From Candidatus Saccharimonadota bacterium (GTDB taxonomy: Bacteria; Patescibacteriota; Gracilibacteria; BD1-5; UBA2023), in NCBI GenBank assembly GCA_046350815.1, contig JAXLZO010000001.1, positions 660,001 to 692,000 of the forward strand: DNA of 32,000 bases. Reading direction: 5' to 3'. The notes under the pieces are model-generated. The model was not told the origin of the DNA, searched no databases, and saw only the letters and a program-made list of their open reading frames with translations. The position numbers and the translations under genes were made by a program. Of this stretch, positions 624-27,958 are shown one piece after another (within the stretch, counting starts at the first letter, position 1; each line of letters starts with the position of its first letter).

Positions 624-3600
624 TTAATCCTTTTTTCCGGTGAAAAATTTTTTTAATCCTGTAAGTGCATTTTGGAAGAATCAAGGTTGTTTTTCCTGCT
701 GCACTATCTTCTGCGATACTGAAGCTTTTTTTGGTGTAGGTTGTTGCATTTTTACCTGCTTTTGCTTCGGTGCATACTCTTTATGTCCAAGCTCATTAAT
801 GAATTTTCGTAATGCGAGAATAGCATTTTGACTCTTTTCATTTTCCCAGTCTATATTTTTCAGATATTTCTGAATTCACCCCTCACTCATGAGTATCTTT
901 TTCTCCATTCCTGGAAATACAACTGCTTCATTTGGTGAGTTAAATTGCCCAAGGAACTGATAATACGCCTTCATACGGGTCTCTCAGAGATCTTTTTCTT
1001 GTTGGATTTTATCGTTTTCGTCTTGAAGGATCGCTATTTCAAGGCCTATAAGTTCACTTTGTTGATCTATGGAAAGCTTATTAAAACTCTTAATTCGCCG
1101 AGGATTGCTATCAAAATTTTTCTGTGCACGTTCATTCGCAAGATGAGATATCTCATCATCAGTGTAGAGATTTTTCGTGATTTCTTCCGGTTTGATAGCT
1201 GTTATGAACTCTTCCCATCCAGCATCTGTTGTGATTGCAGATGCAAATTCCGCTTGATGTCTTTTTATGGTGGCAATTCTTTCATCCTCAATTCTTTTTA
1301 ACTCATTCCGATCTTTTTCTTGGATTTTGTAGATGACCGATTCAAGATGATTGCCTTGTCTTTGAGCATCTTCATGATTTCCAAGAACAATAGGCTTAAG
1401 GAGATCGGTAGCTCTCTCTTCAACACTTCTTCCATCATCTTTTCCACTTGGATTGAGAAGGAGTTCTATCGCCTTTATTTGCTCTTCGAGAAGTTTATAC
1501 TGCTCTGGACGACGATCGAGATAGAGATGCTCAAGAAACTTCTTTTTTGGATAGTTCCACCACTCCTTTGCTTTCTCTTTAAAAGTTTTTTCTTCCCCTT
1601 TGTAGAGTTTAATAGCAGGATTGTATTGTTCTAAAAGCATGTATACAAAGTCTCGAGATTGCTCTGTAGTAACATCATTATCACCTTCTTGTTTGATGCG
1701 TGTGCTGTTGATAAGATGGGCAATGTCCTCAGCAATTTGTTCCATCAGTCTTTGTGTATCTAAAAGTACTTCGTTATAAGCATCCTTTCCACTTATCAGT
1801 ACATTCTTATTTCTCGATTTTTTTGAGCTAAATCGTCTTGCTTGAATTTGTCGAAAATTTGCAAGCAAACCATGCATAAAGAGTGTCAGTGAGACAAGTA
1901 ATATAATTTTTGCCGTACGTGGAAGTGATGCAGTGATTGCTGAAGCAAGTTTTCATTCTCTTTTCAAATTATCTATATGTTCAAGAAGGTTGCGAGCCTC
2001 AACTGGTAAGAGAGCAGCATTAATTCCTTGTGTGATGTTATCAGTATTAAGCTCAACTTTGATCGCAACATTAGCATCCAATTTTTGATTATATTTGGTG
2101 CTAAACTTTTTAGCATTTTCTTGAGCTGTATTGAGAAGTTTTGTATGATTTTCCATCACTCACTGCATAATGGCATTTGCCTTTTCAATATTTACAAGAG
2201 CTGTTTTAAGACGAGAGGACATGGAATCAATACCAGTATTGAGTGATGCACGGTTGGTATATTCCTTTTCATCATTTCCAAGAGTAAAACCTCTGTCATT
2301 TTCTTTTGCTATTGCAAGTTGATCTCATGAGTAATCATAGATTTTTTTTAATTGATCTTGACTATAACTCTCCAATATCATTCAGAGAACCTCTACATCA
2401 ATCTGAGCAAAGCTCCGTGGCATATGAAGAGTAGAAAGAGTATCTGAAAAATATTCATCTGCGCTGATAATTTCACCGTGAAGATTTACCTTTGGAAGAA
2501 TATTGAGATTGATTCCTTGATTAATAGTAGTGGTATCGATCGGTTTACCCGCTGGATTTAAGACAGTTTGCTTATGAAGAATTTTTGATTCGAGAGCAGA
2601 GAGACGCCCTGCTCCATTATTACCTGGACGATTATTCTCCGCATCCAGAATTGTTTTCGCTTTCTGAGTAATGTTGCTTTGAATTTGGGAATATTGTGAT
2701 TTCAGCTGTGTTCACATACCACTTTCAGCCGTCTCGTTCATAACAGTTGTGAATACATCCTGTGCTTTTTGATTGTATTGTTGTTGATCAGATACTTTCT
2801 GTATGGAACTACCAGAATCTACTACTAGTCCAAGTAATAACGCAGCGGTCATAGTCCCCCATTTTGTCTTTTTGGTAGGTTGAGATGGGGTATTGTACTC
2901 CATTGGCACATGCAAGGCTGGTTTACCACGTTTCACTCGGATAATATCAGCGATATTTCACCAAAGATTACTTCATTTGCTTGATGCATTGACTCGATTT
3001 CCTTGTGTAATCGCTCACTGTGCAAGAGCGACGCTTGAACCCGCAACGTGTCCGATAGTTGGGTCATTCGGCATAAGATTGGCATTATAGTATCCACCAA
3101 TTCCTGCGGTAGCGGCGTTTGTCAAAATACCTAATGCTTTCATGTCGTTGGCAAGCGCTATATTTGGCTTACGTGTCTGGAGTGCATCTATTTGTGCTTC
3201 TTCGATGCTGAGATCGAGAGAAAACTTTGCAAGCTGTTCAGGTGTATATAATTTCTGGATTTTTTTGGGTTCTTGGATTTCATGTATGGTTGTATCAATG
3301 GTATCTTGTACTATTTCGATGACCTGTTCTTGTGGGAATAATTCAATAAGAGTATCAGAATTGATTCAAGAAAAGACTGAATCTTGTGCGTTCTTTTTGA
3401 GATCGGTCAGTCCCACAGAGGATGACATGGAATCTACAATAATATCACGAATATGATCAAATATTTTTCACTTTGTGGTACTATCCACATCGAATCATGA
3501 AGGTATAGATTCTTCTATGGCTACTAAGAGTGAGCGGCATGATTTATAATCCTTTCATTCGAGACGATTAAAGTCCACTACTTTCCAGCTCAAAATAACC

Positions 3601-3872
3601 GTGCTTACTTTTTGTTGAAGTTCCTGAGCAAGCAGTTCAAAAGGATCTTGTGCATCTACCTGTTCAATAATATCATCAAGGCTGGATGATGTTTGAACTT
3701 CCGGCATAGCCTCAGCAGACTTATTCTTATCTGTCTGTGAGTGAGGTAGGTTGATATTTGATATATTGAATCCAGTAAAACCTGAATGGTTATTAACAGG
3801 TTGAGCATCCTGTCTATAAGATCACTTATTCGCATCATTCATATCGAGAGAGTTTGTAGTAAAAATATACAT
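624..3872 (-). CDS. large orphan membrane protein (1082 aa), function unknown
   Basis: Track fragments 984-1877, 1953-2159 and 2712-2936 plus untracked pieces share one frame. They join across in-frame TGA (e.g. 681, 984, 1953, 2160, 2325, 2712, 2958). The first ATG after the upstream TAA (3903-3905) is at 3872, and the stop is TAA 624-626. Two hydrophobic segments are present (WGTMTAALLLGLVV and IILLVSLTLFMHGLL). No known domain recognised. Confidence 0.7.
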
Positions 3873-4298: not shown

Positions 4299-5414
<1,116 letters not shown>

Positions 5415-6336: not shown

Positions 6337-7143
6337 GGCTCTAGACCAGAAGAAAGTAACTCATATACTCTCTTCTTATGATCCCATACAGCAAAATATC
6401 AGTTCACGAACTTAAAAAGATTATTAAGTGCTTTTGTGTGGATATTGATACCACAAAAACAAGCGAGCTTTTGGGATATAATCGAAAGACGGTCAACCAT
6501 TATTTCTCTATCTTTAGGAAAATAATCTACACGAATCGTATTGAGGCTTTCAAAGAAAAGATAGGTTGAGAAATAGAAGTAGATGAAAGCTATTTCTGAG
6601 CCAAGCGAAAAAGATGATTTGCAGGAAAACTTAAACGATGAAGATGAACCCTCAAACAGCCAGTATTTTGACTCATCAAGAGAAAAGATGAGAATGGAAG
6701 AGTAGAAATATATACAGAGATTATTCCGAATTGCAAAGCTGTAACACTCCGCCCTATAATACAGGGAAAAGTCAGTGCCCCATAATCCAAGGAAAAGTCA
6801 GTCTAGAGAATTCTATCCTATATTCGGATGGCTGGAAAGGATACGATGGTCTCGTAGATGTATGAATCGACAAGCACTTTCGAGTCAACCATGGTACAAG
6901 TGAATTCTCACTTGGGAATGGAATTCACATCAATGGGATTGAGAACTTCTGGAGTTTTACAAAGCGCCGATTGAACAAGTTCAACGGCGTGAAAGTAAAC
7001 TTTCACCTTCATCTCAAAGAATGTGAATGGAGATATACCAAAGAAAGCTTTGAACTTGAGCAGGAACTTCTTACAATGATTAAAATCTTTTATAAAAAAT
7101 CCAGAAAATCTTAGATATTTCTAAAATCTTCTGGTCTAGAGCC
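6337..7143 (+). mobile_element. IS1595-family (ISXO2-like transposase) insertion sequence, copy 1, decayed
   Basis: 17-bp terminal inverted repeats GGCTCTAGACCAGAAGA at 6337-6353 and 7127-7143 (reverse complement) enclose a transposase ORF. No flanking target-site duplication was found. Confidence 0.8.
6378..7114 (+). pseudogene. ISXO2-like DDE transposase, frameshifted
   Basis: The N-terminal part (MIPYSKISVHELKKIIKCFCVD...GEIEVDESYFGAKRKRG, TGA=Gly) ends at TAA 6783-6785. The remainder (SILYSDGWKGYDGL...HINGIENFWSF...LKECEWRY) continues in another frame from 6782 to TAG 7112-7114. The shift coincides with an imperfect 26-bp duplication at 6756-6781 / 6782-6807. Confidence 0.8.
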
Positions 7144-14034: not shown

Positions 14035-14811
14035 ATGAAATGACGAAACAAGGATGAAATCCTTATTAAAACTCCCGAAGAGATTGAATGAATTCGAAAA
14101 TCATCAAAGCTCGCTGCTTCAGTGCTTGATTTTATTGTTCCATACGTTGTTCCAGGCGTTACAACCATGGAGCTTGATAATATGATGAATGTTTACATTC
14201 AGCAAAATGGTGGAGTATCCGCATGTATAGGCTATCATGGCTATCCGCGCTACACATGTATATCTGTCAATGATGTAGTATGTCATGGGATCCCGAGTGA
14301 AAAACAGGTTCTCAAGGATGGTGATATTGTGAATATTGATGTCACAACCATCGTTGATGGATATTTTGGTGATACTTCTCGTATGTATTTGCTCGGGAAT
14401 GTTTCGCGTGAAGCAAAGAAGCTTGTTGAGGTAACAAAAGCTTGTCTTGATATTGGTATCGAACAAATTCGTCCAGGAAATCACTTTGGTAATATCGGCT
14501 ATGAGATTGCACTCTATGCTGAGCGACTTGGATACTCGGTTGTTCGAGATTTCACAGGGCATGGCACTGGAGTATATTTCCATGAAGCCCCAATGGTATT
14601 TCATAAAGCCCCAAAAAACAGTGGAGAATTGATGGAAGAGTGAATGATATTTACGGTCGAACCAATGATTAATATTGGAACTTATCACACCAAGATCGAT
14701 CAAAAAGATGGATGGACAGCTCGAACGAAGGACGGAAAATGGTCGGCTCAGTATGAGCATACGATTCTTGTGACGAGTGATGGGTATGAGGTATTGACAG
14801 TTAATCCCTAA
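14035..14811 (+). CDS. map: type I methionine aminopeptidase
   Basis: Track ORF 14122-14643 extends both ways across TGA. Motifs: [41 protein letters not shown] and QYEHTILVT. Stop is TAA 14809-14811. Confidence 0.95.
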
Positions 14812-14813
14812 AG

Positions 14814-14840
14814 AAAAACCACCGCATGCGGTGGTTTTTT
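14814..14840. terminator. rho-independent terminator after map (also faces the convergent 93-aa ORF)
   Basis: A-run, then CCACCG-CATG-CGGTGG stem-loop, then T6. Confidence 0.75.
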
Positions 14841-14849
14841 GCCGCATTT

Positions 14850-15131
14850 TTAGCGGCTATTGTTTGAATCATGGATCAGATATATTTGCCGAACATGACG
14901 CACTTTTTTCTGAAGAAACTTCGGTAGCGCCGAAGGTTTTTCTTTTCCTTGCAAGACCATCTGGCTTCGGTAACTCTCGACTTCCTGACGATCTCGCTCA
15001 ATGAGACCATGGAAACGAGGATGCTTTTCAAAAAAGCTTTTTACTTCATGAGAAGTTGGTACTTCCTTTTTTCGAAGTAGTTTCCTTAATACAACGCGGA
15101 CAGATGCAAGAGCTATTGTCACCCATTTCAT
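14850..15131 (-). CDS. hypothetical basic protein (93 aa)
   Basis: Intact track ORF with TAA stop 14850-14852. The ATG is preceded by AAAGGGGTGAACT, a possible Shine-Dalgarno. No family recognised. Confidence 0.5.
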   Translation of the reverse strand: MKWVTIALASVRVVLRKLLRKKEVPTSHEVKSFFEKHPRFHGLIERDRQEVESYRSQMVLQGKEKPSALPKFLQKKVRHVRQIYLIHDSNNSR

Positions 15132-15269
15132 AGTTCACCCCTTTGTCTTTTTTATTCCCTTCATTTGAGGGAGTTTGTTTTATGGAGGGAATATACCCTC
15201 CGTTGACCTTGACATTCTATGAGAAAATGAAAAATTGCAAATAACTATTGATCAACACAGTTTGGAATC

Positions 15270-17363
15270 TTATGGGCAAGGTTCAAGATGTGTTTGACCA
15301 TCTACTCCATTATTGCGAAATAATCCGGAAATTACAGGACAACTGATACTAATCGCACTAATATCTGGTATAGAATTATAACGAAAAGCACCATTCACCC
15401 ATGATTCTCATCACCATTCTTCTCTATCTCAATCTGAAGTTTGGTAGGATTGGAAAGAAATATTATCAGGAATCACAATAGATGTAAGACTATTATGACT
15501 GAAAGCGTCAGTTTCAACTATAACGTTATTCGTCTCTGGAAATGTCACAGATGTGAGTCCCTTGCCTTCAAAGGATCATCGAGAAATTCTTGTGACAGTA
15601 ACATTGTCAATAGATTCCGGTATAGTAACAACCGATCAACAAGCTGAATTATAAGACAATATCATTCCATTTATATTAATAGAGAAACAAGGTCACCTTG
15701 CTTGTATCGACCATTCCGATTCAGTTCCATTAAAATATATTGTTACTTGTTTATTCTCATTTTCTTGCAGAAGAGCGGCTACTCTATATTCCACCTGATC
15801 GTCATTGTGAGTGATCTGACCACTGGTAACCCATGAACCTCCGTTAATACGCAACTCTCCGCCAACAACAGCAATATCTACAGGAGTAGAGATATGACTC
15901 GCTGTTACCACATTTGAAATAATATCCGTACCAAGAGGAGCGTTGGTCACGCTATATGGCGGTGAAAGTGATGGTGGAATAACAAGAGGTGGTGGAAGTA
16001 TAATCCCTAACTCATGCTGTGACCCGACATAAAAATCAGTTGAACTCGTTGATCCTGTACAACCATAGGGAGTAACATCGAGAAAGCTTGACTGTGGAGT
16101 ACAAGCTATACTCGCATATGGAGTCTCAAATGCTATATTCGATGGCATATTAGTACTGCCAGCAAGAATAGTAACGGGAGATTGATAGTTGCTATCTAGA
16201 ATGAATGTATCAATCACATATCCATCCACCGTATCATCTATGAGTGACCCAGGAGTAATCGTCGTAATAGTCACTCCATAAGTTGCATAGAGAGATATAG
16301 TAAGAGGCCCTATATATCCATAGTAGGTATTCCCCATAATACTATACTCTCCCATAGTAAGTATATGACTTACCGGTCATCCTCCTCCACCTCCAGAATC
16401 ACCACCCCCAGAACCTGATCCACTCCCCGTACCACTATTCATCCCCAAGAGTGCCTTCTCATCAAAGCTTCCATCCTTCAGAGAAAGAAGAGATCAAGTA
16501 GAGATATCCATGGATACATATTCATCAGCTCACTGTGATCCTACCATGATATCAAGCGTACTTGCATCACTCAAAGAGATATCTCTACTTCCTGTACCAC
16601 TCACTCCATTCTGAAGAGGTTGCTTACTTCCCTTGGAGAGAAAGATTCAAAGTCTATCTCCTGCAGAGTAGGGATATCTCGAAGAGAGATCAGTAGTACT
16701 GCTATCGAGAGCATAAGCAGTATCCAAGGTATAAGCTTGAGAGAAGAGAGAAGGAAGATTGGAAGGGAGAGCAGAAGTCAGAGATTGCGAAGCAATCTCT
16801 TGTATCCTTCATCTCCCTGCAATCTCAATACTCCTCTCAAATCTTGGATTCTCAAGGTATGCCATGAACTGAGCTTGGTCGTAGTGTTGATTGACTCGAT
16901 AGGTATAGGGTATATTGTCTTTTGGATCAAAGATCTTATCTGATCCATATCCAAGAGGATTTACCAGAGCAAGACTCATGAATCATTGGTATCCGATGAA
17001 TGATCCACTCACACTAAGAGAGACACTATCTGCTATAGGTGTAGGAAGCTTTCGAAGCTGTGCACTGGTAATTCTCGCACTCTCTGACAATGTCTTAATA
17101 TCACTAATTCTCTTTCCATCTCTTGCTACTGATGACTGATGACTCATCACGACAAACCCTATCACGGATAGTATAGAGAGTATGGTAATAACTACTATGA
17201 GTTCTGTGAGAGTGAAACCACTCTTATTTCAAAAACCCCTCTTCTTTCAAGAAATTCTCTCCTCTCAAGACTCCCTCTCCTCTCAAGACTCCCTCTCCTC
17301 TCAAGAATTCTTCTTCTCTCAAAAGACTCTTTTGAGAAATTGAAACGATGACAGATATCACAT
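15270..17363 (-). CDS. type IV pilin-like (prepilin N-terminal cleavage/methylation motif) protein with C-terminal BspA-type leucine-rich repeats (697 aa)
   Basis: Fragments 15693-16355 and 16983-17165 plus untracked pieces form one frame with 20 in-frame TGA. The class III signal is KSG/FTLTELIVVITILSILSVIGF (about 17222-17150). A Gly/Ser linker lies at 16380-16440. The LRR pattern VTIPESIDNVTVTRISRGSFEGKGLTSVTFPETNNVIVETDAFSHNSLTSIVIP lies within 15270-15690. The only in-frame ATG upstream is at 17363, so the start is uncertain. Stop is TAA 15270-15272. Confidence 0.72.
17241..17330 (-). repeat. 18-bp tandem repeat, about 5 units (2 perfect), inside the annotated 5' end of the pilin-like gene
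   Basis: Plus-strand units are CTCCTCTCAAGACTCCCT at 17259-17276 and 17277-17294, with degenerate units on both sides. Each unit carries one TGA on the coding strand and encodes G-E-E-R-E-S under code 25. Confidence 0.85.
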
Positions 17364-17418
17364 AATATTGAAAACAGATTACTCAGAGTATTCCAACATA
17401 CTTTCATCAGAAAGACAA

Positions 17419-17445
17419 AAAATATCACAGATAAAGTGATATTTT
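17419..17445. promoter_or_regulatory. 10-bp-arm palindrome in the divergent pilin / ABC-F intergenic region (candidate operator)
   Basis: AAAATATCAC-agataaa-GTGATATTTT lies 56-82 nt upstream of the pilin ATG at 17363. Confidence 0.3.
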
Positions 17446-17540
17446 GGGTGGACAGATATGTTATTTTAGTTTTAGAAAAACTTGTATTCGATTTTCTCTG
17501 TGTACAATAGATCCTTGTTGTTTATCAATGTTGATCTGCC

Positions 17541-19257: not shown

Positions 19258-19848
19258 CTAGAAAAATCCTTCTCTTTGATATTTTTCAATAAATAGCTTC
19301 CTTTCCTCATCAGACATTCTCTCAAATTCTCTGATGCCCTCGTCCAATCCATCGAGAATTTTGATGAGTTCCCAGTAGCTTCTGAGGAATTCAAGTTGAT
19401 TTTTTGGGTCGATTTTTTCAAGAAGTTGAGAGATAACAATACTTTGATGCTCTGCAATCTCTTTGAGAGAATAGTGACGTCCTGTGGTGGATGATAAAGA
19501 TGTATGCACTGATATTAGTCAAGTTTTGTTATATACATCACTGATAAGATCAGTGACAGTTTGTGCAATTGTTCGTCGAATATTTGGAGTATTAATCTGT
19601 TGCGTTCTTTTCGTATAATCAAGAATACGATCAAATCCTGTAGCTTTTTCTTTATCAAGATTGATAAAAGTATGTTTCCCCTGGTAGAATCAATTGTTGT
19701 GATGGAATAGAAGAGTATCTTCTTCTTGTATATTGATGAGATACTTACTCACTTGTTTTATCTGATTTTGTATATTTTTGAGATGTTCATCTGAAAATGG
19801 TACCGCATGATTAGTTCATACATAGAGAGGATAGAAAGAGTTGTACAT
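19258..19848 (-). CDS. hypothetical protein (196 aa)
   Basis: Track ORF 19258-19509 extends upstream across TGA (19519, 19690, 19816) to ATG 19848. That ATG lies 26 nt after the stop of the upstream ORF. Stop is TAG. No family recognised. Confidence 0.5.
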
Positions 19849-19874
19849 ATATTCGTAAAAGAGAAATAAAATTT

Positions 19875-20255
19875 TTAGAGATCATCATCCGAGCACCATT
19901 GATGATATGGTGTTGTCCTTAGAATGAAGTCAATTTTTGTTCTTGCTTCGTCGATAAGAGCCCATATTTCTCCATTTGCTTCGTAGGTTCTGAGAGCTTC
20001 AAACTGCTTATTAGTTTCGTCTGTTAGGAGTCTCAGGAGGGTGATAGTGAGAATTTTTTTGAATGCCTCTCATCGAAATGTATTCCCTTGAGCTATTGAG
20101 CTTTGCATTCTTTCTCTTGTGAGCGTCACTATATCGAGCTCTGATCTTGTTTCATGAGTATCTCTTACTGAGATGGAAGAGAGGGGATCAATCAATCCAA
20201 AGGCAATATTTGCATTGCACTGTGTGCGAAGTGAAAGGTTGTATGTTTCGTTCAT
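19875..20255 (-). CDS. hypothetical protein (126 aa)
   Basis: Track ORF 20070-20255 continues across TGA 20070 to TAA 19875-19877 (GEAFKKILTITLLRLLTDETNKQFEALRTYEANGEIWALIDEARTKIDF...). No family recognised. Confidence 0.5.
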
Positions 20256-20269
20256 AGAAAGTTTTTTGA

Positions 20270-20318
20270 GTAAATAAAATCCGCGAGTTCACCTGATCTC
20301 AGGGTACGTCTCGCGGAT
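20270..20318 (-). terminator. strong interrupted hairpin plus U-tract (terminator or attenuator) just upstream of the 126-aa ORF
   Basis: The minus-strand RNA has AUCCGCGAG ... CUCGCGGAU (9-bp stem) with an inner CCUG-AGAU-CAGG stem-loop, followed by UUUAUUU. It ends about 15 nt before the ATG at 20255. Confidence 0.5.
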
Positions 20319-20459
20319 AAGCAATTTGATTTTTTGTTTTCTATAAATATGCCTTCCACGACGGAGGCATCCACATTGGGACAAGTGTGAAATAAGAAAA
20401 GAAAATCATATATTGTATATTGCTGTAATGTTCTTTATTTTTTGAGGAAAGTCAAATTT

Positions 20460-21746
20460 TTATGCAACGATCATCTTGAGTGCAGTGGGATCAAAGAGGA
20501 AGAAATATCCGAGTATCAGCATGATGATACCACCAATTGCGAGACAGTATCGTGTATACTTGCTCGTGAGATGGAGATATTTGAACGCATAGAGTGCAAT
20601 ACCAAATACAAGAAAATCATCAAACATATAAAAGAGTGTGTAGAGTCCGATATATCCTTGCTTTGCAGCAAAGCCGAGTGAGCTCATTTCAAGAAGCTTG
20701 GTGAATGCTTGAGGAATGCCGATAGAACAAGCAAACTCGATCACATTGACAGAAAAAGCTATACCAATGGTCGTCAGGAAGATAGCAATACTCATCGGTG
20801 CTTCAGCGATTTTTTTGATCTGCTGTGTGAGTTTGCGTTTTTGGTCGACACTCGTTACTTTGCATTCTCCGTCTTTGTTCGTAAAAAACTCATAGAGGAA
20901 GAATCATCCAGCAGCGAGAGATATAAGTCCAATAATAGGTGTGACGATATGATCAAGCTTCACAAAATCCCAAGTCTTGTACCAGACATTGAGGATCATA
21001 AAGTACATTATTGCCTCTGCAAGGATAAATATCCCCGCTATCTGAAACATCTTTTTTCGAGATCCAGACTGGACAAGTATGGAGAGGAACATCACGAGTA
21101 CCCACATAGCACATGGATTGAATCCATCGACGAATCCAAGTACAGCTGCAAGAATTGGGAGAGAATATTCTTTGAGGTTGATGATACCTACGAATGGAAG
21201 ATCCACATACATAGCATTCTTATCTATTTCACAACCTTCTGTTGTACATCCCTCACCACTTTTTGTAGAAGAGAGTTTGTCTTTTGCATTTTCAAAAAGA
21301 GAGCTTTCTTTCATAGTGGCTACTCATTCTTTGATCATCCTTCCAGTCGTCTCAGGACTCTGATATCCTTCGATAATCTGATTCCCTACGAGAAGAATGG
21401 GAGTTACTTTACTGAGGTTATTTATCTGAGTAAACTGATCATAGAGAGCTGCATTTTCAGGAAGATTGATATCATAATATCGTGGCTTGATCGCACTACC
21501 ACTTGCAAATTCTGTGTCGAGAAATTTCTTGAGTGATCTACAGTGAACACAGTCAGGACGGGTAAATACAGAAAACTCAAGGTGTTCCTGGTTGATACTG
21601 CTGTGTGATGTAGGAGCTGATTGAGTCGATACTTGTGTGGGCTGAGGAGTCTCAGCTGCCAATACGATGTCATGAGATATGAATCCTCCGATCGTGCTCA
21701 GAGCGATCAAAAGGGTAGTGCCGAATTTCTGGAGATTTGAGTGCAT
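20460..21746 (-). CDS. fusion of a secreted glutaredoxin/thioredoxin-like domain (CVHC) with a CcdA/DsbD-type transmembrane thiol-disulfide transporter (428 aa)
   Basis: Track ORFs 21324-21746, 20904-21314 and 20460-20795 are in one frame, joined by TGA at 21324 and 20904. Elements in order: signal or TM segment LLIALSTIGGFI, redox motif RPDCVHCRSLKKFL, then the CcdA-like core (GFVDGFNPCAMWVL ... IEFACSIGIPQ). Stop is TAA 20460-20462. Confidence 0.78.
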
Positions 21747-21797
21747 AGATATAAAAGGAAAGCATGGAGAGTATAGATTATTTAGATATTTTTACAA

Positions 21798-21826
21798 TGA
21801 AAAGCCCCGTCGTTTGACGGGGCTTA
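21798..21826 (-). terminator. GC-rich rho-independent terminator of the 122-aa cassette
   Basis: AAGCCCCGTC-gttt-GACGGGGCTT (21802-21811 / 21816-21825), followed on the minus strand by UUUUC. Confidence 0.75.
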
Positions 21827-21840
21827 AGCCTAACTGCTAT

Positions 21841-22209
21841 TTACAAAGAGAAGGAAGCATATGCAAATGCACATACTTTCTCGAGAATCTCTTCGCTTTT
21901 TTTCAGCTGTGCGCTGATTGGTCCTTCTATGCCGTACTGATAGCTTAGGTGGTTATCAATAAAAGTGCATATCATGCTCGCACTTGGTTTATGCTCCAGA
22001 AAATATCTCCGTGCGGGATACGTATTGAGATAAAGCGGCACGAATAATAACATGTATTTATCCCATGATAGCCTTCTTTGGTTATGATTAGTAGACCAAG
22101 AAAGACAGATAACAAGGCGAATATTTGCTCTCAACTCAGCTTTAAGTTGAGTTGAGAGATACGATGTTAGGGCTGGTATTTCGCCCACCTGTTTGGCTTT
22201 GCTGCTCAT
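21841..22209 (-). CDS. hypothetical protein (122 aa), monocistronic cassette
   Basis: Intact ORF with no UGA and TAA stop 21841-21843. A perfect AAGGAGG lies 6 nt upstream of the ATG (22216-22222 on the plus strand as CCTCCTT). It has its own promoter palindrome and terminator. No family recognised. Confidence 0.6.
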   Translation of the reverse strand: MSSKAKQVGEIPALTSYLSTQLKAELRANIRLVICLSWSTNHNQRRLSWDKYMLLFVPLYLNTYPARRYFLEHKPSASMICTFIDNHLSYQYGIEGPISAQLKKSEEILEKVCAFAYASFSL

Positions 22210-22261
22210 TGTGAGCCTCCTTTTTGTTGATTTGTTTCACCATCTTATGATAAATATATAT

Positions 22262-22292
22262 TTGTCAAAAAATTTTATTATAAAATTGACAA
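22262..22292. promoter_or_regulatory. inverted repeat TTGTCAA-N17-TTGACAA (opposed -35-like hexamers or operator)
   Basis: TTGTCAAAAAATTTTATTATAAAATTGACAA lies between the dioxygenase stop (22320) and the 122-aa gene start (22209). Confidence 0.4.
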
Positions 22293-22319
22293 TAAATAAT
22301 TTATGTATTTTCAGATTAT

Positions 22320-23042
22320 TTACCCTTGCTTTCATTGTGATTCAGATGATACAATACCTAACTTCATATTCGCAGGCAGAGCGATATCAATATATTTTGG
22401 ATATTCGAGTTTGAGTCGATGCATCGTCTCGGTGAGTTCTTCGATGGAGGTATCCGATCGCATGCGAGTATTGTAGAGTTTTTCTTCTCCGATTGTACTC
22501 ATAGTGAGCCCTTGGTAGTCATGTCCAGGATAGACACGAGTTGTGTCAGGGAGTGTGTAGAGTTTTGTGATGCTTTGATGGAGTTTCGCAGGAGATCATT
22601 GTTGAAAATCCGTCCGACCGGTCTTGCGAATGAGGAGTGTGTCTCCTGTGAAGATCATATCTTCGATGAGATAGCTCGTACATCCATCAGTATGTCCTGG
22701 AGTAGCAAATGATCGAACATCGATAGACCCTACACGGATAACTTCGTTATCCACAAGCAAGATATCAGGCTGAGCAACTGCCGCACCTATTCCCATGACA
22801 ATCTTTGCTCAGGTTCTCTCACGGAGCACACCACTGCCGGTGATATGATCTGCATGAATATGTGTATCGAATATATGCGTGAGCCTCAGTCAAAGCTCAC
22901 TAATGAGTTTGAGATCGCGATCAACTTGGTCAATAACAGGATCAATAATGAGTGCTGATCAGGTATTTGTATCACCTACGAGATAGCTATAGGTCCAGGT
23001 TTTTTCATCGAAGAGTTGACGAAAGAGAATGTTGGAAGGCAT
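22320..23042 (-). CDS. MBL-fold persulfide dioxygenase (ETHE1/Blh-like), 240 aa
   Basis: N-terminus MPSNILFRQLFDEKTWTYSYLVGD...ALIIDPV, metal motif THIHADHITG, then ATPGHTDGC...FTGDTLLIRKTGRTDFQ. There are four in-frame TGA. Stop is TAA 22320-22322. Confidence 0.88.
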
Positions 23043-23137
23043 AAAAAGAAATGAAAATAAATACATGTGATTGAGAAAAGAGGGGTTTAGTGTGGCCACC
23101 ATATTGTCACACACCATCGTCAAGCTGTTTTCATAGA

Positions 23138-23929
23138 TTACAGAGAGAGAAATTCACGACCAATCATGATGAGCGCCATAGCCATAGTAAATATACCAAA
23201 AGCTTTTGAGAGTATTGTTGTTGGTATTCGTTTTTGGAGTATGAGTCCGAGTATGAGTCCCACGATGGCGAGGCTAATGCTAGTAGTTATCAAGGTTATA
23301 TGCTCGTTCGAAAATTCATGTGGGAGTCAGCTGAGAAACCCTATGCCAGAATTCATCGTAATAATCACGAGAGATGTAGCGACAGCACTACGAAGCGTCA
23401 GTCATTCGAGTGCCATAAGTGCTGGAACGATGAGAAATCCACCACCAGCACCAACCATCCCAGTGATAGCACCAACTATTCATCATTCAAGTGTTGTGAT
23501 GAGATGTTTTTTCCACCCAATGATACGAGCACCTTCTTGAAGATGATTTATTTTTCTCTTACATACTATGGAACATCCGGCAGCAAACATGATCAATCCA
23601 AAGAGGAGTAATACGAGTGTTCATTTTTCAATAAGTCCGATATGATCAGGAATGCGCTCGATGAGGAAATGACGAGAGAAATAGGTAGCGAGAAGAGACG
23701 GTATTCCAAATATGATCACTTTGTCCCAAAGAATCTCTGAGTTTTTGATTTTTGTGAGTGCTCCCACAAAAGCGGTGCTACCAACAATGATAAGGCTATA
23801 GTAGGTTGCTTCGAGAGGATTGATATGAAAGAGATACACCAGTATCGGTACGGTCAGGATCGCTCCTCATCCTCCGACGAGTCCGACTACCATACCCATG
23901 ATGATCATCGAGAAGAAAGGAAAAATCAT
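23138..23929 (-). CDS. TauE/SafE family (DUF81) anion exporter-like membrane protein, 263 aa
   Basis: MIFPFFSMIIMGMVVGLVGGGGAILTVPILVY with a UGA-encoded Gly at 23867-23869. A second repeat reads GMVGAGGGFLIVPAL. It is hydrophobic throughout. Stop is TAA 23138-23140. Confidence 0.82.
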
Positions 23930-23942
23930 AGATATGGGAGAG

Positions 23943-24257
23943 TTACATATGTTTTTGTAGGAGTGATACGAGATCAGTGACAGAATGCACGCCGGAAGTT
24001 CGCTCGATGATCACACCATCTTTGAAGAGAATCATTGTAGGAATACTTCGTATTGCAAGTTGTTGCGCAATATTTGGTTCATTATCGACATTGTGCTTCA
24101 TGATACGAGCTCGATCTCCGATTTGTTTTGCGAGATCTTCGAGAATCGGTCACATCATTTGGCATGGGCCACACCATGGAGCCCAGAAATCTACGAGTAC
24201 AAGACCTTGTGATGTATCACGAGCGAAGTTAGAATCAGTGGATGTAAGAACAGACAT
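23943..24257 (-). CDS. trxA: thioredoxin (104 aa)
   Basis: [16 protein letters not shown] active-site motif and ...[13 protein letters not shown]. One in-frame TGA. Stop is TAA 23943-23945. Confidence 0.9.
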
Positions 24258-24288
24258 AGAAAACAAGTGAAAAAATGAAAAAGAGAAG

Positions 24289-24633
24289 TTATGCTAAATA
24301 GGATATTTGAAATGCTTGAGTAATCTCGAGGATTTTCGACCGAGTTTCATAGAGGGATTTGATGCTCCCCGCAACGTTGGTTGCTTGTTTCCCATTTTGT
24401 GCGAGCCATGCACACGCTTGCCCACTGCGAGCTCCGGTACGACAGAGGATGTAAACCTCTTTTTTGAAATCAATCTCTTGATACCGATCAGGGAATTGGG
24501 AAATTGGAATGAGTTTTGCTTGAGGGATTCGGATCATATCCCATTCATTCTGTTCTCGCACATCGATGAGCTCAATGTTTGGATTTTTTTGAAGAATTTG
24601 CTCGAGCTGCATTGCGGATATTTCTTGGTACAT
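24289..24633 (-). CDS. single-domain rhodanese sulfurtransferase (114 aa)
   Basis: Intact track ORF. The active-site loop is ILCRTGARS (CxxxxR). Stop is TAA 24289-24291. Confidence 0.85.
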
Positions 24634-24642
24634 AGAGGTGAA

Positions 24643-25068
24643 TTATGGGATAAACTTTTTTGTAAGGAACATGCTGGTAAGCATACTCACAAGGAAAATC
24701 AGGGTGAAACTCTGATGGAATATAATAGCACCTACAGCTGGTCCGGGACAGAGACCGCCGAGTCACCACCCGATACCAAAGAGTATTGATCCAATAACTA
24801 GTTTCTTGTCAATTATTCCTTTTCTCTCCCATGAGAAATACCACTTTTCCGCAAAGAATGGCTTTGGATGTTTCTCGAGGATAAAGTGTCCGAGGAGTGA
24901 TATACTGAGCGCGCCTATCATGACAAAGATGAGGGTTGGATCCCAAGTGCCAAATATATCAAAAAATCATCGTACGCGATCGGGTGAGAGCATATCCGAG
25001 TAAGCAAGTCCATATCCGAAGAGCCCACCAGATAGGAGCGAAAGGAGAGCAGATGTGAGGTGTTTCAT
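24643..25068 (-). CDS. YeeE/YedE family sulfur-transport membrane protein, second half-size paralogue (141 aa)
   Basis: MKHLTSALLSLLSGGLFGYGLAYSDMLSPDRVRGFFD...FGIGWGLGGLCPGPA. It starts 3 nt after the upstream stop. Stop is TAA 24643-24645. Confidence 0.78.
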
Positions 25069-25071
25069 ATA

Positions 25072-25482
25072 CTACAAGAAGTTATGAAGCGTGACAGTAG
25101 CGATACCACTCGACACAAAGAGAAGTGTTGCGATGATCGATCTCTGAGAGAGTCGACCGATGCCACAGACAGCGTGCCCACTTGTGCAACCATTTGCGAG
25201 CGTTATACCGATACCTACGAGTATTCCACTTATGATTGCTATGGTAGACGATGTTTCCGTATTTGAGGGGATATATGCACTATGGTTGAGAGTATAGAGC
25301 CCGACTCCGACGGGTATACCGAGGAGAAATGTATAGCGCCATATGCCGTGTTCACCGCCAGGAAGGACTCACTTGAGGATGCCTGATATGCCCATGACAC
25401 GCCCGAGTCAGCCAGACATAATAAGTGCTGCTATACCGATGAGTATACCACCGATGAGAGCATGAATATAGAGAGGATTCAT
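25072..25482 (-). CDS. YeeE/YedE family sulfur-transport membrane protein, first half-size paralogue (136 aa)
   Basis: MNPLYIHALIGGILIGIAALIMSGGLGRVMGISG...LANGCTSGHAVCGIGRLS. Stop is TAG 25072-25074. Confidence 0.78.
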
Positions 25483-25487
25483 AAATT

Positions 25488-25784
25488 TTAACATTGGTTA
25501 TTGCAATAAATAGTGGCGAGAGATTTCAGCATCTGAGATATACGGTTATCTTGGATGCGGTAGTACACAAAGATGCCATCTTTACGACTCTCGATGAGTC
25601 ATTCTTGACGCATCTTAGCGAGGAATTGTGAGAGCTGTGATTGAGATATGCTACAGAATTTCTCAAGATCGCCGACACTCATTTCTCCTTCAGAGAGTTT
25701 ACAGAGGATGAGAAGCCGCTTTGGATGAGCGAGGAGCTTGAGAATCTCTGCTACTTCGGAGGCTTTTTGTTCGAGTTCATTCAT
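25488..25784 (-). CDS. ArsR/SmtB-family transcriptional regulator, BigR/SqrR-like (98 aa)
   Basis: Track ORF 25599-25784 continues across TGA 25599 to TAA 25488-25490. The wHTH pattern is ILKLLAHPKRLLILCKLSEGEMSVGDL...SQSQLSQFLAKMRQEGLI. Cys28 lies in helix 2, with Cys94/Cys98 near the C-terminus. It is the first gene of the sulfur operon. Confidence 0.85.
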
Positions 25785-27002: not shown

Positions 27003-27768
27003 GGCTCTAGACAAGCAAACATTTGAATAATTGAGCGTTTCGCTAATCTTCTGAGAAGGAGCCGTAAGGCTTCTTCTTTCTTATTGCGATAATTATACCG
27101 AAACTCACATTCTTTCAAATGAAGATGGAATTTGTCTGCTCGGATTCAGTTTAATTTGATCATTCTTTGTTTTGCAAAACTCCAAAATGCCTCTATACCG
27201 TTTACATGACTTTTTCATCTCGCAAACTTAACGAAGTGTATGCCTGTGGTGCATTGTGTGAATGAAACACTCTATAATGTTCGTATCCATTGAGTATAAG
27301 CCCATCATAACTTGTCCAACCATCAGAGTTGACCGTGGATCATTCCAGAACTTTTCCTTGTATAGTATAGGCATTAATGAGTCTCTACTACAATCTGGAA
27401 CAATACTTACAGAGACATTTCAGTTTCTTTTCTGAAGTCCAAACACTGTGGTGTTTTTCCAGCCGCTCACCTTCATTGTTTTCCTCTGACTCGTCTTGCA
27501 CCGAAGTAACTCTCATCAACTTCAAATTCTCAGAATTCTTTTCAAAACTTTGATGATTCTTCAATAGATATTCTCACAATTTCTTCTCGAAATATAGCAT
27601 AGTACCTGTTAATAGTGTTACGAGATATTTCGAGAAGTTCTGATGTTTGAGTAGCAGTAAAGTCTCCTAAAAATAGCTTCAAAATTTCTCGTATTTTCTC
27701 AGAGCTGATTTTACTGTATTTAATCATATGGAACTAGTGTAAGAAGATAATTCTTCTTGTCTAGAGCC
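27003..27768 (-). mobile_element. IS1595-family insertion sequence, copy 2, decayed, with target-site duplication
   Basis: Terminal inverted repeats GGCTCTAGACAAG at 27003-27015 and 27756-27768 (reverse complement). The flanking 7-bp direct repeat GCTATTT is at 26996-27002 and 27769-27775. Confidence 0.82.
27005..27727 (-). pseudogene. ISXO2-like transposase with multiple frameshifts
   Basis: The N-terminal part is MIKYSKISSEKIREILKLFLGDF...GEFEVDESYFGARRVRGKQGRGAAGKTP. The homologous sequence then continues in three further frames (VFGLQKRNGNVSVSIVPDCSRDSLMPI; QGKVLEGSTVNSDGWTSYDGLILNGYEHYRVFHS; VNGIEAFWSFAKQR...HLHLKECEFRYN). Confidence 0.75.
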
Positions 27769-27874: not shown

Positions 27875-27958
27875 TGGTGCCCAGAAAGGGATTTGAACCC
27901 TCACACCTTGCGGCATACGCGTCTGAGACGTACGTGTCTACCATTCCACCACCTGGGC
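27875..27958 (-). tRNA. tRNA-Leu (anticodon CAG), class II with long variable arm, CCA encoded
   Basis: The minus strand reads GCCCAGG-TG-GTGGAATGGTAGACAC-G-TACGT-CTCAGAC-GCGTA-TGCCGCAAGGTGT-GAGGG-TTCAAAT-CCCTT-TCTGGGC-ACCA. All four stems pair, with G-U pairs allowed. Confidence 0.9.

What the first reader, a model, noticed from the sequence alone, without database searches (positions are those of the whole stretch)
15270..17363. Giant type IV pilin-like protein carrying a BspA-type LRR module: candidate host-attachment adhesin
One 697-codon frame is continuous only if 20 UGA codons are read as Gly. It combines a prepilin class III signal (KSG/FTLTELIVVITILSILSVIGF), a region of about 250 aa, a Gly/Ser linker (GTGSGSGSGGGDSGGGGGG, 16380-16440), a Thr/Pro/Ile-rich domain, and a C-terminal BspA-like leucine-rich-repeat module (15270-15690). 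Typical major pilins are much shorter. A pilin N-terminus fused to an LRR binding module would display an adhesin on a retractable fibre. Organisms with this genetic code are believed to live attached to other bacteria and to depend on type IV pili, so this is a plausible host-recognition determinant. I am not aware of a described pilin-LRR fusion in this lineage.
Basis: partly seen in the sequence, partly recalled or inferred. Interest (0 to 1): 0.75.

Follow-up and report, generated by a model that had tools for sequence, protein, structure and literature searches.

The report
Mosaic pilin–LRR adhesin gene, Gracilibacteria
This is an intact gene for a type IV pilin-like protein ending in a small leucine-rich-repeat binding module; it is one of at least seven shuffled copies in one tiny Gracilibacteria genome, which makes it a sensible but untested candidate for host attachment, and its architecture is already catalogued.

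Summary
Window 15270-17363 (minus strand) is one 697-codon frame ending in TAA. I confirmed this on two housekeeping genes and inside the gene itself.

The protein has a prepilin class III signal (above the Pfam and NCBIfam cut-offs), a pilin head, a Gly/Ser linker, a family-specific beta-rich domain, a PPP linker, an Ig-like repeat unit, and a minimal BspA-type LRR of about 3 units with both caps. The LRR is below Pfam's cut-off but scores 45 bits against a profile built from its paralogues.

New findings:
- The window belongs to an NCBI Candidatus Gracilibacteria MAG whose genome holds at least six other family members.
- The target is an intragenomic mosaic: head from one paralogue, middle domain from another, and a unique C-terminal part. 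The junctions fall at the linkers.
- It is absent from the same slot in nine syntenic relatives.
- The LRR shows no population-level hypervariation, and no DGR is present.

Pilin plus LRR_5 is already listed among "modular pilins" (Raynaud 2021). Its function as a pilus-displayed adhesin is inferred. The gene is a new member of a known kind, of moderate interest.

The parts
15270..17363 (-). Complete coding sequence of the modular pilin-LRR protein: 697 codons plus TAA, code 25, with 19 UGA-Gly codons
17220..17363 (-). 48-residue leader peptide before the predicted cleavage site G48|F49. It contains a six-unit degenerate 18-bp tandem repeat (17214-17322), and each unit starts with a UGA codon, giving the hexapeptide G-[EK]-[EK]-[RK]-x-[SF].
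   Evidence: P0001 and L024 share this leader with one unit fewer. Leaders in the family range from 13 to 48 aa.
17139..17219 (-). Class III signal core and hydrophobic alpha-1N helix (FTLTELIVVITILSILSVIGFVVMSHQ), with Phe at +1 and Glu at +5
   Evidence: PF07963 at 27.4 bits and TIGR02532 at 28.9 bits, both above their cut-offs. The alpha-1 region aligns to the MshA pilin and to geopilin.
16434..17138 (-). Conserved pilin head region (aa 76-310), with one variable insert at aa 185-225. The fold is not verified.
   Evidence: Family alignment A1. Identical to same-genome paralogue P0001 at 134/136 and 84/85 residues. AlphaFold on paralogue P0004 gave pLDDT below 50 for this region.
16377..16433 (-). 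Gly/Ser linker GTGSGSGSGGGDSGGGGGG (aa 311-329)
   Evidence: The last Gly is a UGA codon; relatives have GGN, UGA or other sense codons at that position.
15975..16376 (-). Family-specific beta-rich middle ('M') domain, aa 330-463
   Evidence: AlphaFold pLDDT 75-93. No significant match among solved structures. Found only in this family in the exhaustive search. Identical to paralogue P0003 at 129/134 residues.
15696..15974 (-). Pro-rich linker (aa 464-~470) followed by an Ig-like beta repeat unit (aa ~471-556)
   Evidence: The unit recurs up to 27 times in giant proteins (614 hits). It has no Pfam model. Model confidence is low, pLDDT 53-64.
15270..15695 (-). Minimal BspA-type LRR (LRR_5) module, aa 557-697. 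It has an N-cap (CFSININGMILSY..VVTIP), about 3 repeat units (the third with an insert), and a Cys-Pro C-cap like those of P0009 and P0015.
   Evidence: PF13306 at 23.6 bits, E = 5e-5, below the cut-off. 45.3 bits against the paralogue LRR profile, versus at most 9.9 for shuffles. The top solved-structure hit is TpLRR 6mlx, aligned in register. The LRR of paralogue P0004 folds confidently and matches 4fd0, 4fs7, 4cp6 and 6mlx.
14803..17539 (.). Variable slot between the Map terminator hairpin and the ABC-F promoter region. In the window it holds the small ORF (14850-15164) and the target. In nine syntenic relatives it holds only a small ORF.

Best explanation
The gene encodes a modular type IV pilin. 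A prepilin class III signal and a pilin module serve as a carrier. Flexible linkers and two beta-rich spacer domains connect this carrier to a small BspA-type leucine-rich-repeat module, which is the likely ligand-binding part.

Proposed mechanism:
1. The prepilin peptidase cleaves after Gly48 and methylates Phe49.
2. The hydrophobic alpha-1 helix, with Glu at +5, docks the subunit into a type IV filament.
3. The roughly 390-residue C-terminal part is too bulky for the shaft, so the subunit most likely sits at the pilus tip as a low-abundance (minor) pilin.
4. There it presents the LRR to a surface ligand, plausibly on the bacterial host or prey, and retraction then pulls the cells together.

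The gene is one of at least seven scattered paralogues in a 1.28-Mb Candidatus Gracilibacteria genome. They share a near-identical carrier but differ in the C-terminal module. The target was built by recombination among paralogues at the inter-domain linkers, and it sits in a slot that is empty in close relatives. The family therefore behaves as an exchangeable repertoire of binding heads on one pilin carrier.

Shown: the genetic code, an intact ORF, the prepilin motif, the LRR homology, the family, the mosaic structure and the accessory status.

Inferred: processing by the peptidase, incorporation into pili, tip location, adhesion and the identity of the ligand.
For: - Genetic code and ORF integrity.
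- Prepilin motif above the curated cut-offs, with F+1 and E+5.
- LRR homology of the target.
- LRR fold of a paralogue and its match to BspA-type surface proteins and adhesins (PcpA, TpLRR, Bacteroides proteins).
- Family of 17 proteins plus 25 metagenome loci, all with the same carrier and with variable C-terminal modules (LRR_5, or FN3 plus classical LRR).
- Same-genome paralogues identified by exact protein look-ups.
- Mosaic breakpoints at the linkers (head matches P0001, M domain matches P0003, C-terminal part unique).
- Absence of the gene from the Map/ABC-F slot in nine syntenic relatives.
- A T2SSE (PilT/PilB-family) ATPase next to a tandem pair of family genes in L022.
- Published precedent that a pilin module can carry an adhesive module at the pilus tip (S. 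sanguinis PilB, PMC8179133).
- pilB, pilC, pilD and pilT reported in Gracilibacteria. Type IV pili expressed in Gracilibacteria, and cited as essential for host adhesion in Saccharibacteria.
Against: - The pilin head fold is unverified. AlphaFold pLDDT is below 50, and only alpha-1 resembles solved pilins.
- The 48-residue acidic/basic repeat leader is atypical for prepilins and is weakly constrained, with 7 non-synonymous changes against 1 synonymous versus L024.
- No pilus machinery, major pilin or prepilin peptidase gene lies in the window.
- The LRR is very short (about 3 units) and below Pfam's gathering score.
- No expression or proteomic data are available.
- The mosaic could in part be an assembly artefact, since the paralogues share near-identical modules.
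- The exact protein could not be found in the public collection, although the accession numbering leaves one slot for it.
Confidence: 0.6

Rival explanations
1. The protein is a surface adhesin anchored in the membrane by its class III signal, and it is not part of a pilus. The prepilin-type signal would serve only for export, processing and anchoring of a cell-surface LRR protein. This would resemble the archaeal 'bindosome' substrate-binding proteins, which carry class III signals (established knowledge, recalled from memory), or a pseudopilin-like stub that never extends.
For: The head fold is not recognisable as a pilin beyond alpha-1. The leader is unusually long. The gene is solitary, with no pilus genes nearby. 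The long linkers and spacer domains would suit a stalk standing on the cell surface.
Against: Glu at +5 and a canonical alpha-1N helix are the features used for docking into a filament. Modular pilins with the same logic are shown to be displayed on pili. One locus places family genes next to a T2SSE ATPase.
Confidence: 0.2
2. The gene is a decaying or chimeric paralogue that no longer functions. It could be a recombination by-product or a metagenome misassembly that happens to keep an open frame, with an LRR array truncated to about 3 units.
For: The LRR is far shorter than in the paralogues, 3 units against 6-14. The gene is a patchwork of paralogue segments. Assemblies of this family often break inside the gene. 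The gene is missing at this site in all nine relatives. No form of the protein could be retrieved from the public collection.
Against: There are 697 codons with no TAA or TAG and with normal UGA usage. Both LRR caps are intact, and the C-terminal ending matches the full-length proteins P0009 and P0015. The unique C-terminal 240 residues have no source elsewhere in the genome, so they cannot have come from a misjoin between known paralogues. Both flanks are uniquely syntenic. The accession numbering leaves exactly one protein accession for this interval.
Confidence: 0.12
3. The protein is a minor pilin of a DNA-uptake (competence) or secretion-type filament rather than an attachment pilus, and the LRR binds a non-host ligand such as extracellular polymer or a secreted partner protein.
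For: Weak NCBIfam similarities to GspG, GspH, ComGC and ComGD, confined to the N-terminal motif and all far below their cut-offs. The literature links Gracilibacteria pili to DNA uptake through ComEC. In L022 a T4SS-type coupling ATPase lies beside family genes.
Against: The similarity is limited to the motif shared by all type IV filament subunits. BspA-type LRRs in solved relatives belong to surface or adhesin proteins. A multi-copy repertoire with variable heads fits recognition of variable targets better than a housekeeping uptake role.
Confidence: 0.08

Closest known systems
Modular type IV pilins: S. sanguinis PilB (vWA module) and PilC (lectin module); concept and census in Raynaud et al. 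2021 PNAS (PMC8179133)
   Same: An N-terminal class III signal and pilin module act as a carrier, joined by a linker to a module not specific to pilus biology that mediates binding. The authors predict tip display. Their census lists the architecture IPR012902-IPR026906 with 18 proteins, and 6 more with two copies. IPR026906 corresponds to the BspA-type LRR, Pfam LRR_5; that equivalence is from my memory.
   Different: The module here is a minimal LRR_5. Two extra spacer domains lie between carrier and head, one of them specific to this family. The leader is 48 residues with a tandem repeat. The gene belongs to a family of at least seven paralogues that recombine within the genome. None of this has been studied experimentally, and the census assigned no function to IPR026906.
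BspA-type LRR surface proteins (Pfam PF13306): T. forsythia BspA, pneumococcal PcpA (4cp6), T. pallidum TpLRR (6mlx), Bacteroides proteins 4fd0, 4fs7 and 4fdw
   Same: The repeat type is the same (about 23 residues..LxxVxIPxSVxxIGxxAF..), as is the N-cap. The paralogue model matches these structures at E = 2.5e-7 to 7e-5, and the target aligns in register with TpLRR.
   Different: Those proteins are attached through other devices (choline-binding repeats, lipid anchors or secretion-system C-terminal domains; from memory), not through a pilin N-terminus. The target has only about 3 units.
Large tip-located minor pilins of type IVb pili (ETEC CofB, V. cholerae TcpB) and the non-pilin tip adhesin PilY1/PilC
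   Same: A bulky C-terminal beta-rich part is carried at the filament tip by a pilin, or by a pilin-binding module, through a flexible linker (summarised).
   Different: There is no sequence or fold similarity beyond the pilin N-terminus. Those proteins are encoded inside pilus operons, whereas the target is solitary.
Pilin antigenic variation by recombination with silent copies (Neisseria pilE/pilS; from memory)
   Same: Several partial or complete paralogous copies exchange segments by intragenomic recombination and so alter an exposed pilus component (mosaic shown).
   Different: All the copies here appear to be complete genes with their own starts, and exchange is of whole domains at the linkers. 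No G4 or other dedicated initiation element was found, and population data show no ongoing switching.

Membership tests
Type IV pilin / class III signal peptide protein (PF07963, TIGR02532) | Profile match to the N-terminal cleavage/methylation motif above the curated cut-off | tested here: met
   PF07963 scores 27.4 bits against 21.2, and TIGR02532 scores 28.9 against 16.3.
Type IV pilin / class III signal peptide protein (PF07963, TIGR02532) | Gly (or Ala) at -1, Phe at +1, Glu at +5, followed by about 20 hydrophobic residues | tested here: met
   KSG|FTLTELIVVITILSILSVIGFVV, read directly from the sequence. Relatives have G or A at -1.
Type IV pilin / class III signal peptide protein (PF07963, TIGR02532) | Short hydrophilic leader, typically 5-30 residues | tested here: inconclusive
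   The leader is 48 residues if ATG 17363 is the start, and there is no other in-frame ATG, GTG or TTG before the motif. Leaders in the family range from 13 to 48 residues. The leader is weakly constrained.
Type IV pilin / class III signal peptide protein (PF07963, TIGR02532) | Globular head with the pilin alpha-beta roll packed on alpha-1C | tested here: inconclusive
   AlphaFold on paralogue P0004 gives pLDDT below 50 for residues 1-343. A sequence search of solved structures matches only alpha-1.
Type IV pilin / class III signal peptide protein (PF07963, TIGR02532) | Cleavage and N-methylation by a prepilin peptidase, and assembly by pilus machinery encoded in the genome | not testable with these tools
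   No pil genes lie in the window, and the rest of the MAG could not be read. The literature reports pilB, pilC, pilD and pilT in Gracilibacteria. A T2SSE ATPase lies beside family genes in L022.
BspA-type leucine-rich repeat (Pfam PF13306 LRR_5) | Profile match at or above Pfam's gathering score | tested here: not met
   The target scores 23.6 bits against a cut-off of 27.7 (E = 5.2e-5), covering aa 589-636 only. Ten relatives carry PF13306 in the precomputed annotation.
BspA-type leucine-rich repeat (Pfam PF13306 LRR_5) | Homology to bona fide LRR_5 arrays, with the repeat register and caps conserved | tested here: met
   45.3 bits (E = 1.6e-13) against a profile built from paralogue arrays with the target excluded, while the best of 500 shuffles scores 9.9. 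The N-cap and two units align in register with TpLRR. Unit-by-unit comparison is in A1.
BspA-type leucine-rich repeat (Pfam PF13306 LRR_5) | Curved solenoid LRR fold | tested here: inconclusive
   Shown for paralogue P0004 only (pLDDT 83-96, and Foldseek hits 4fd0, 4fs7, 4cp6 and 6mlx at E down to 2.5e-7). The target's own C-terminal part could not be submitted for modelling because it contains UGA codons.
Modular pilin in the sense of Raynaud et al. 2021 | An N-terminal IPR012902 motif plus at least one domain not specific to type IV filament biology | tested here: met
   N_methyl plus LRR_5-type module. The architecture is listed in their Dataset S1.
Modular pilin in the sense of Raynaud et al. 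2021 | Display on the filament and a direct role of the extra module in a pilus-mediated function | not testable with these tools
   This needs experiments. No proteomic or imaging data were available.
DGR-diversified surface protein | A template/variable repeat pair and a reverse transcriptase nearby, with adenine-specific variation | tested here: not met
   No repeat of the gene's 3' region occurs anywhere in the 32-kb window. No reverse transcriptase was found among the neighbours. LRR regions are invariant among orthologues.

The most novel reading that the evidence does not exclude
The seven or more scattered pilin-LRR genes may form a combinatorial 'binding-head repertoire'. In this reading, a constant pilin carrier is repeatedly recombined, at its Gly/Ser and Pro-rich linkers, with interchangeable spacer and LRR cassettes. 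That would let a genome-reduced episymbiont or predator retarget its pilus tip to different host surfaces. It would be a domain-level counterpart of pilin antigenic variation that has not been described for the candidate phyla radiation. A further, more speculative layer is that the UGA-dense tandem-repeat leader (7 UGA in the first 45 codons) could tune expression of particular copies through the supply of the UGA-decoding tRNA-Gly.
Probability: 0.25. Interest if true: 0.7.

Novelty: new member of a known kind. Interest (0 to 1): 0.42.

Why it matters
Gracilibacteria are uncultivated, genome-reduced bacteria thought to live attached to, or preying on, other bacteria. How they recognise a host is unknown. 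This family takes up roughly 1.2% of a 1.28-Mb genome (my estimate: seven genes of about 2.2 kb each). It puts variable LRR heads on a pilin carrier, so it gives a concrete, short list of candidate host-recognition genes that could be tested by binding assays or by correlation with host range. The mosaic structure also shows that domain exchange between paralogues at linkers has shaped these genes. The architecture itself is already catalogued and the function is untested, so this is a useful lead rather than a surprise.

Tried and rejected
I used the UGA-free stretch aa 330-556 and the paralogue P0004 instead.
- The scan of species-representative genomes found no relative.
- Exact look-ups of P0001 and P0004 for genomic context failed, so the paralogues' DNA and neighbourhoods in the MAG could not be read.
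- DGR hypothesis rejected. There is no template repeat, no reverse transcriptase nearby, and the LRRs are invariant.
- Cross-population homogenisation of the pilin module rejected. DNA identity to the metagenome loci is 72-92%, no higher than in the housekeeping flanks.
- An alternative start at ATT (codon 37) is unlikely. That codon is not conserved in L024 (TGT there), and the frame stays open up to the ATG in three homologues.
- The lack of a Shine-Dalgarno motif is uninformative, because genes in this genome generally lack one.
- The promoter scan gave no minus-strand hit upstream of the start, and the overall count did not exceed that of shuffled sequence.
- Fold search of the middle domain gave only generic Ig-like similarity, all at E > 0.003.
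- Pfam on giant proteins that carry the beta repeat gave no model for it.
- In one search the Map row used out-of-frame coordinates and should be ignored.
Full report
**1. The observation**

The minus-strand frame 15270-17363 translates without any TAA or TAG for 697 codons and ends in TAA.

The recoding is real and means Gly, not Trp:
- In the DAHP synthase gene of the window (4299-5414), 6 of 7 aligned UGA positions face Gly in the solved E. coli enzyme, and none faces Trp.
- In the adjacent ABC-F gene, UGA encodes the second Gly of both LSGG signature motifs.
- Within the target itself, relatives use GGN and UGA interchangeably at aa 127, 239, 278, 290, 329, 576 and 652. UGG occurs once, in the poorly aligned leader.
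- UGA makes up 26% of the target's Gly codons, within the 21-37% range of most neighbouring genes.

**2. Anatomy**

- **Prepilin signal.** Residues 46-69 match the prepilin cleavage/methylation motif above both curated cut-offs: PF07963 at 27.4 against 21.2 bits, and TIGR02532 at 28.9 against 16.3. The sequence KSG|FTLTELIVV has Phe at +1 and Glu at +5.
- **Leader.** The only in-frame ATG, GTG or TTG upstream is ATG 17363, which gives a 48-residue leader. It is made of six degenerate 18-bp tandem units (17214-17322), each beginning with UGA. UGA is enriched there: 7 of 8 Gly codons, against 12 of 66 elsewhere (Fisher p = 1.9e-4, with the caveat that repeat copies are not independent). The same leader, one unit shorter, occurs in P0001 and L024. 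Against L024 the frame is kept, but substitutions are mostly non-synonymous, 7 against 1. Family leaders range from 13 to 48 residues.
- **Pilin head (aa 76-310).** It is highly conserved in the family, with one variable insert. Its fold could not be verified. AlphaFold confidence on paralogue P0004 is below 50, and only alpha-1 resembles solved pilins, with MshA at E = 0.011 and geopilin at E = 0.03.
- **After the Gly/Ser linker (aa 311-329).**
  - A confidently modelled beta-rich domain, aa 330-463 (pLDDT 75-93). It has no significant structural match and occurs only in this family.
  - After a Pro-rich linker, an Ig-like unit at aa ~471-556. This unit recurs up to 27 times in giant proteins (614 hits) and has no Pfam model.
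- **C-terminal LRR (aa 557-697).** These 141 residues form a minimal BspA-type LRR: an N-cap, about 3 units, and a Cys-Pro C-cap like that of the full-length relatives P0009 and P0015.
  - Pfam LRR_5 scores 23.6 bits, below the 27.7 cut-off.
  - A profile built only from paralogue arrays scores the target at 45.3 bits, against at most 9.9 for 500 shuffles.
  - The best solved-structure match, TpLRR, aligns in register.
  - The LRR array of paralogue P0004 folds with pLDDT 83-96. It matches the BspA-type structures 4fd0, 4fs7, 4fdw, PcpA 4cp6 and TpLRR 6mlx at E = 2.5e-7 to 7e-5.

**3. Family and genome**

The protein search found 17 relatives, all from Candidatus Gracilibacteria or from metagenomes. 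A metagenome scan added 25 loci, and many of those contigs break inside the gene. The species-representative genome set had none.

All members share the carrier. The C-terminal modules differ: LRR_5 arrays of 3-14 units, with or without the middle and Ig-like domains, or FN3 plus classical LRRs.

Exact look-ups show that the window is itself part of an NCBI MAG with a single 1,283,673-bp contig:
- ABC-F is MFO0763889.1.
- DAHP synthase is MFO0763876.1.
- The DUF2130 protein is MFO0763880.1.
- ArsR is MFO0763899.1.
- The small downstream ORF is MFO0763887.1 (U0518_03450).

That contig also encodes P0004, P0287, P0001, P0008, P0016 and P0003. Their accessions are MFO0763724, MFO0763754, MFO0763806, MFO0764035, MFO0764212 and MFO0764418, so they are scattered around the genome. 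NCBI names them 'leucine-rich repeat protein' or 'prepilin-type N-terminal cleavage/methylation domain-containing protein'. The target is therefore at least the seventh paralogue.

One accession (MFO0763888.1) is left for the interval that holds the target, but no form of the target protein could be retrieved. Its public annotation is therefore unknown to me.

**4. Mosaicism and accessory status**

Against the same-genome paralogues:
- The target's head matches P0001 at 134/136 and 84/85 residues.
- Its middle domain matches P0003 at 129/134. P0001's own middle domain matches at only 107/134.
- Everything after the Pro-rich linker at about aa 460 is unique in the genome, at 30% identity or less. 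The best matches overall are 52-76%, in the metagenome loci L009 and L002.

The junctions coincide with inter-domain linkers. This is the signature of recombination between paralogues, although I cannot exclude a contribution from assembly.

The flanks are conserved. Nine loci from close relatives (ABC-F at least 90% identical; 79-96% nucleotide identity) keep the order DUF4012, YbeY, Map, small ORF, ABC-F. None has a pilin-LRR gene there. Window 14803-17539 has no counterpart in those loci. The left boundary is the conserved Map terminator hairpin. The window's small ORF is a distant homologue of the one in L028 (E = 6e-8).

The gene is therefore a lineage-specific insertion into a variable slot.

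**5. What the data say against hypermutation**

- No template/variable repeat exists in the window.
- True orthologues of other family members from different samples have identical LRR regions. Their few differences cluster in the pilin head.
- DNA identity of the carrier to the metagenome loci (72-92%) does not exceed that of the housekeeping flanks.

The diversity is therefore between paralogues, not generated on the fly.

**6. Context**

The window has only this one prepilin motif and no pilus machinery. The neighbours are housekeeping genes and a sulfur-handling cluster.

In L022, a T2SSE-family ATPase (169.6 bits), a cNMP-binding protein and a TrwB/TraG-type coupling ATPase lie directly upstream of two tandem family genes.

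The literature reports pilB, pilC, pilD and pilT in Gracilibacteria and expressed type IV pili in groundwater Gracilibacteria. It cites pili as essential for host adhesion in Saccharibacteria. Sieber et al. 2019 anticipate 'many and potentially diverse pili' in Gracilibacteria. The hypervariable gene they describe is a different one, a PTD-repeat protein.

**7. Mechanism**

The best-supported reading (confidence 0.6) is a modular type IV pilin. The pilin module docks into the filament, probably at the tip given the bulk of the rest. The linkers and two beta domains act as a stalk, and the small LRR binds a surface ligand.

This follows the experimentally established logic of S. sanguinis PilB. 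Only the architecture is shown here. Processing, incorporation into pili, tip location and the ligand are all inferred.

Rivals:
- A membrane-anchored, non-pilus surface protein that uses the class III signal only for export and anchoring (0.2).
- A non-functional or chimeric copy (0.12).
- A minor pilin of a DNA-uptake or secretion filament (0.08).

**8. Comparison and novelty**

Raynaud et al. 2021 searched InterPro for pilins that carry extra domains. They list IPR012902-IPR026906 with 18 proteins, plus 6 with two copies, among the most common architectures, and they class its function as unclear. That IPR026906 is the BspA-type LRR entry is from my memory.

The fusion as such is therefore catalogued, and the paralogues are annotated in GenBank. 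The claim that no such fusion has been described is too strong, even though I found no paper on this Gracilibacteria family.

What is new here is descriptive: the family-specific middle domain, the repertoire of at least seven copies in a 1.28-Mb genome, the linker-bounded intragenomic mosaic, the insertion into an otherwise conserved slot, and the UGA-rich repeat leader.

I rate it a new member of a known kind, with interest 0.42. The most novel reading the evidence does not exclude is a recombining binding-head repertoire for host retargeting (probability about 0.25).

Noticed in passing
window 17214-17322 (minus-strand codons 15-48 of the target): The leader peptide is encoded by six degenerate 18-bp tandem units, each starting with UGA. 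UGA accounts for 7 of 8 Gly codons there, against 12 of 66 in the rest of the gene (p = 1.9e-4). Copy number differs by one unit in same-genome paralogue P0001 and in L024. The purpose of such a long, charged, UGA-dense prepilin leader is unexplained.
   Followed up: partly
window 6638-7114 (+) and 27407-27727 (-); inverted repeats I1 and I2; tRNA-Leu(CAG) at 27875-27958: Two degenerate fragments of an IS1595-family transposase lie in inverted orientation about 20 kb apart, bracketing the region that contains the target. One holds the C-terminal DDE part (PF12762, 42 bits) and the other looks like the N-terminal part. The second fragment sits next to the only tRNA gene in the window.
   Followed up: no
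window 19674-20456 (includes the 3' part of the 235-aa ORF 19258-19965, minus strand): A second stretch with no counterpart in syntenic relatives L027, L028 and L029 lies immediately downstream of ABC-F, where those relatives carry a DUF6166 gene. L035 does align across it. ABC-F is therefore flanked by variable slots on both sides.
   Followed up: partly
L022:855-8733: A PilT/PilB-family T2SSE ATPase, a cyclic-nucleotide-binding protein and a TrwB/TraG-type type IV coupling ATPase lie directly upstream of two tandem pilin-LRR family genes (one with classical LRR_14/LRR_8 repeats). This is an unusual juxtaposition of pilus-type and conjugation-type ATPases with the adhesin family.
   Followed up: partly
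window 15696-15953 (aa ~471-556 of the target); proteins P0138-P0286: This roughly 80-residue Ig-like unit is a widespread repeat. It gave 614 hits and occurs up to 27 times in proteins of up to 4407 residues. Pfam has no model that covers it in the target or in four giant proteins I checked.
   Followed up: partly
window 20460-25784 (minus strand): A compact sulfur-handling cluster is conserved in relatives. It comprises a membrane thioredoxin-like protein, an MBL-fold enzyme, TauE/SafE, thioredoxin, rhodanese, two YeeE/YedE-like half-proteins and an ArsR regulator. That is notable for such a reduced genome.
   Followed up: no
window 624-3872 (minus strand): A 1082-residue ORF with 16 UGA codons has no Pfam match at E <= 0.001. 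It is a large protein of unknown function with one apparent hydrophobic segment.
   Followed up: no
loci L001, L003, L004, L006, L007, L008, L011 and L012 (orthologue pairs from different samples): The few differences between near-identical orthologues are clustered in short patches of the pilin head (for example codons 100-126 and 259-263). This pattern suggests small conversion tracts from paralogues, or read mixing between paralogues during assembly.
   Followed up: partly
P0290-P0292 and P0331 (members of the clusters found): Short fragments of the same ABC-F and ArsR proteins are deposited under 'Candidatus Peregrinibacteria/Peribacteria' MAGs. They look like gene calls made with the standard code on code-25 contigs, so those records are probably mis-translated and possibly mis-binned.
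   Followed up: no
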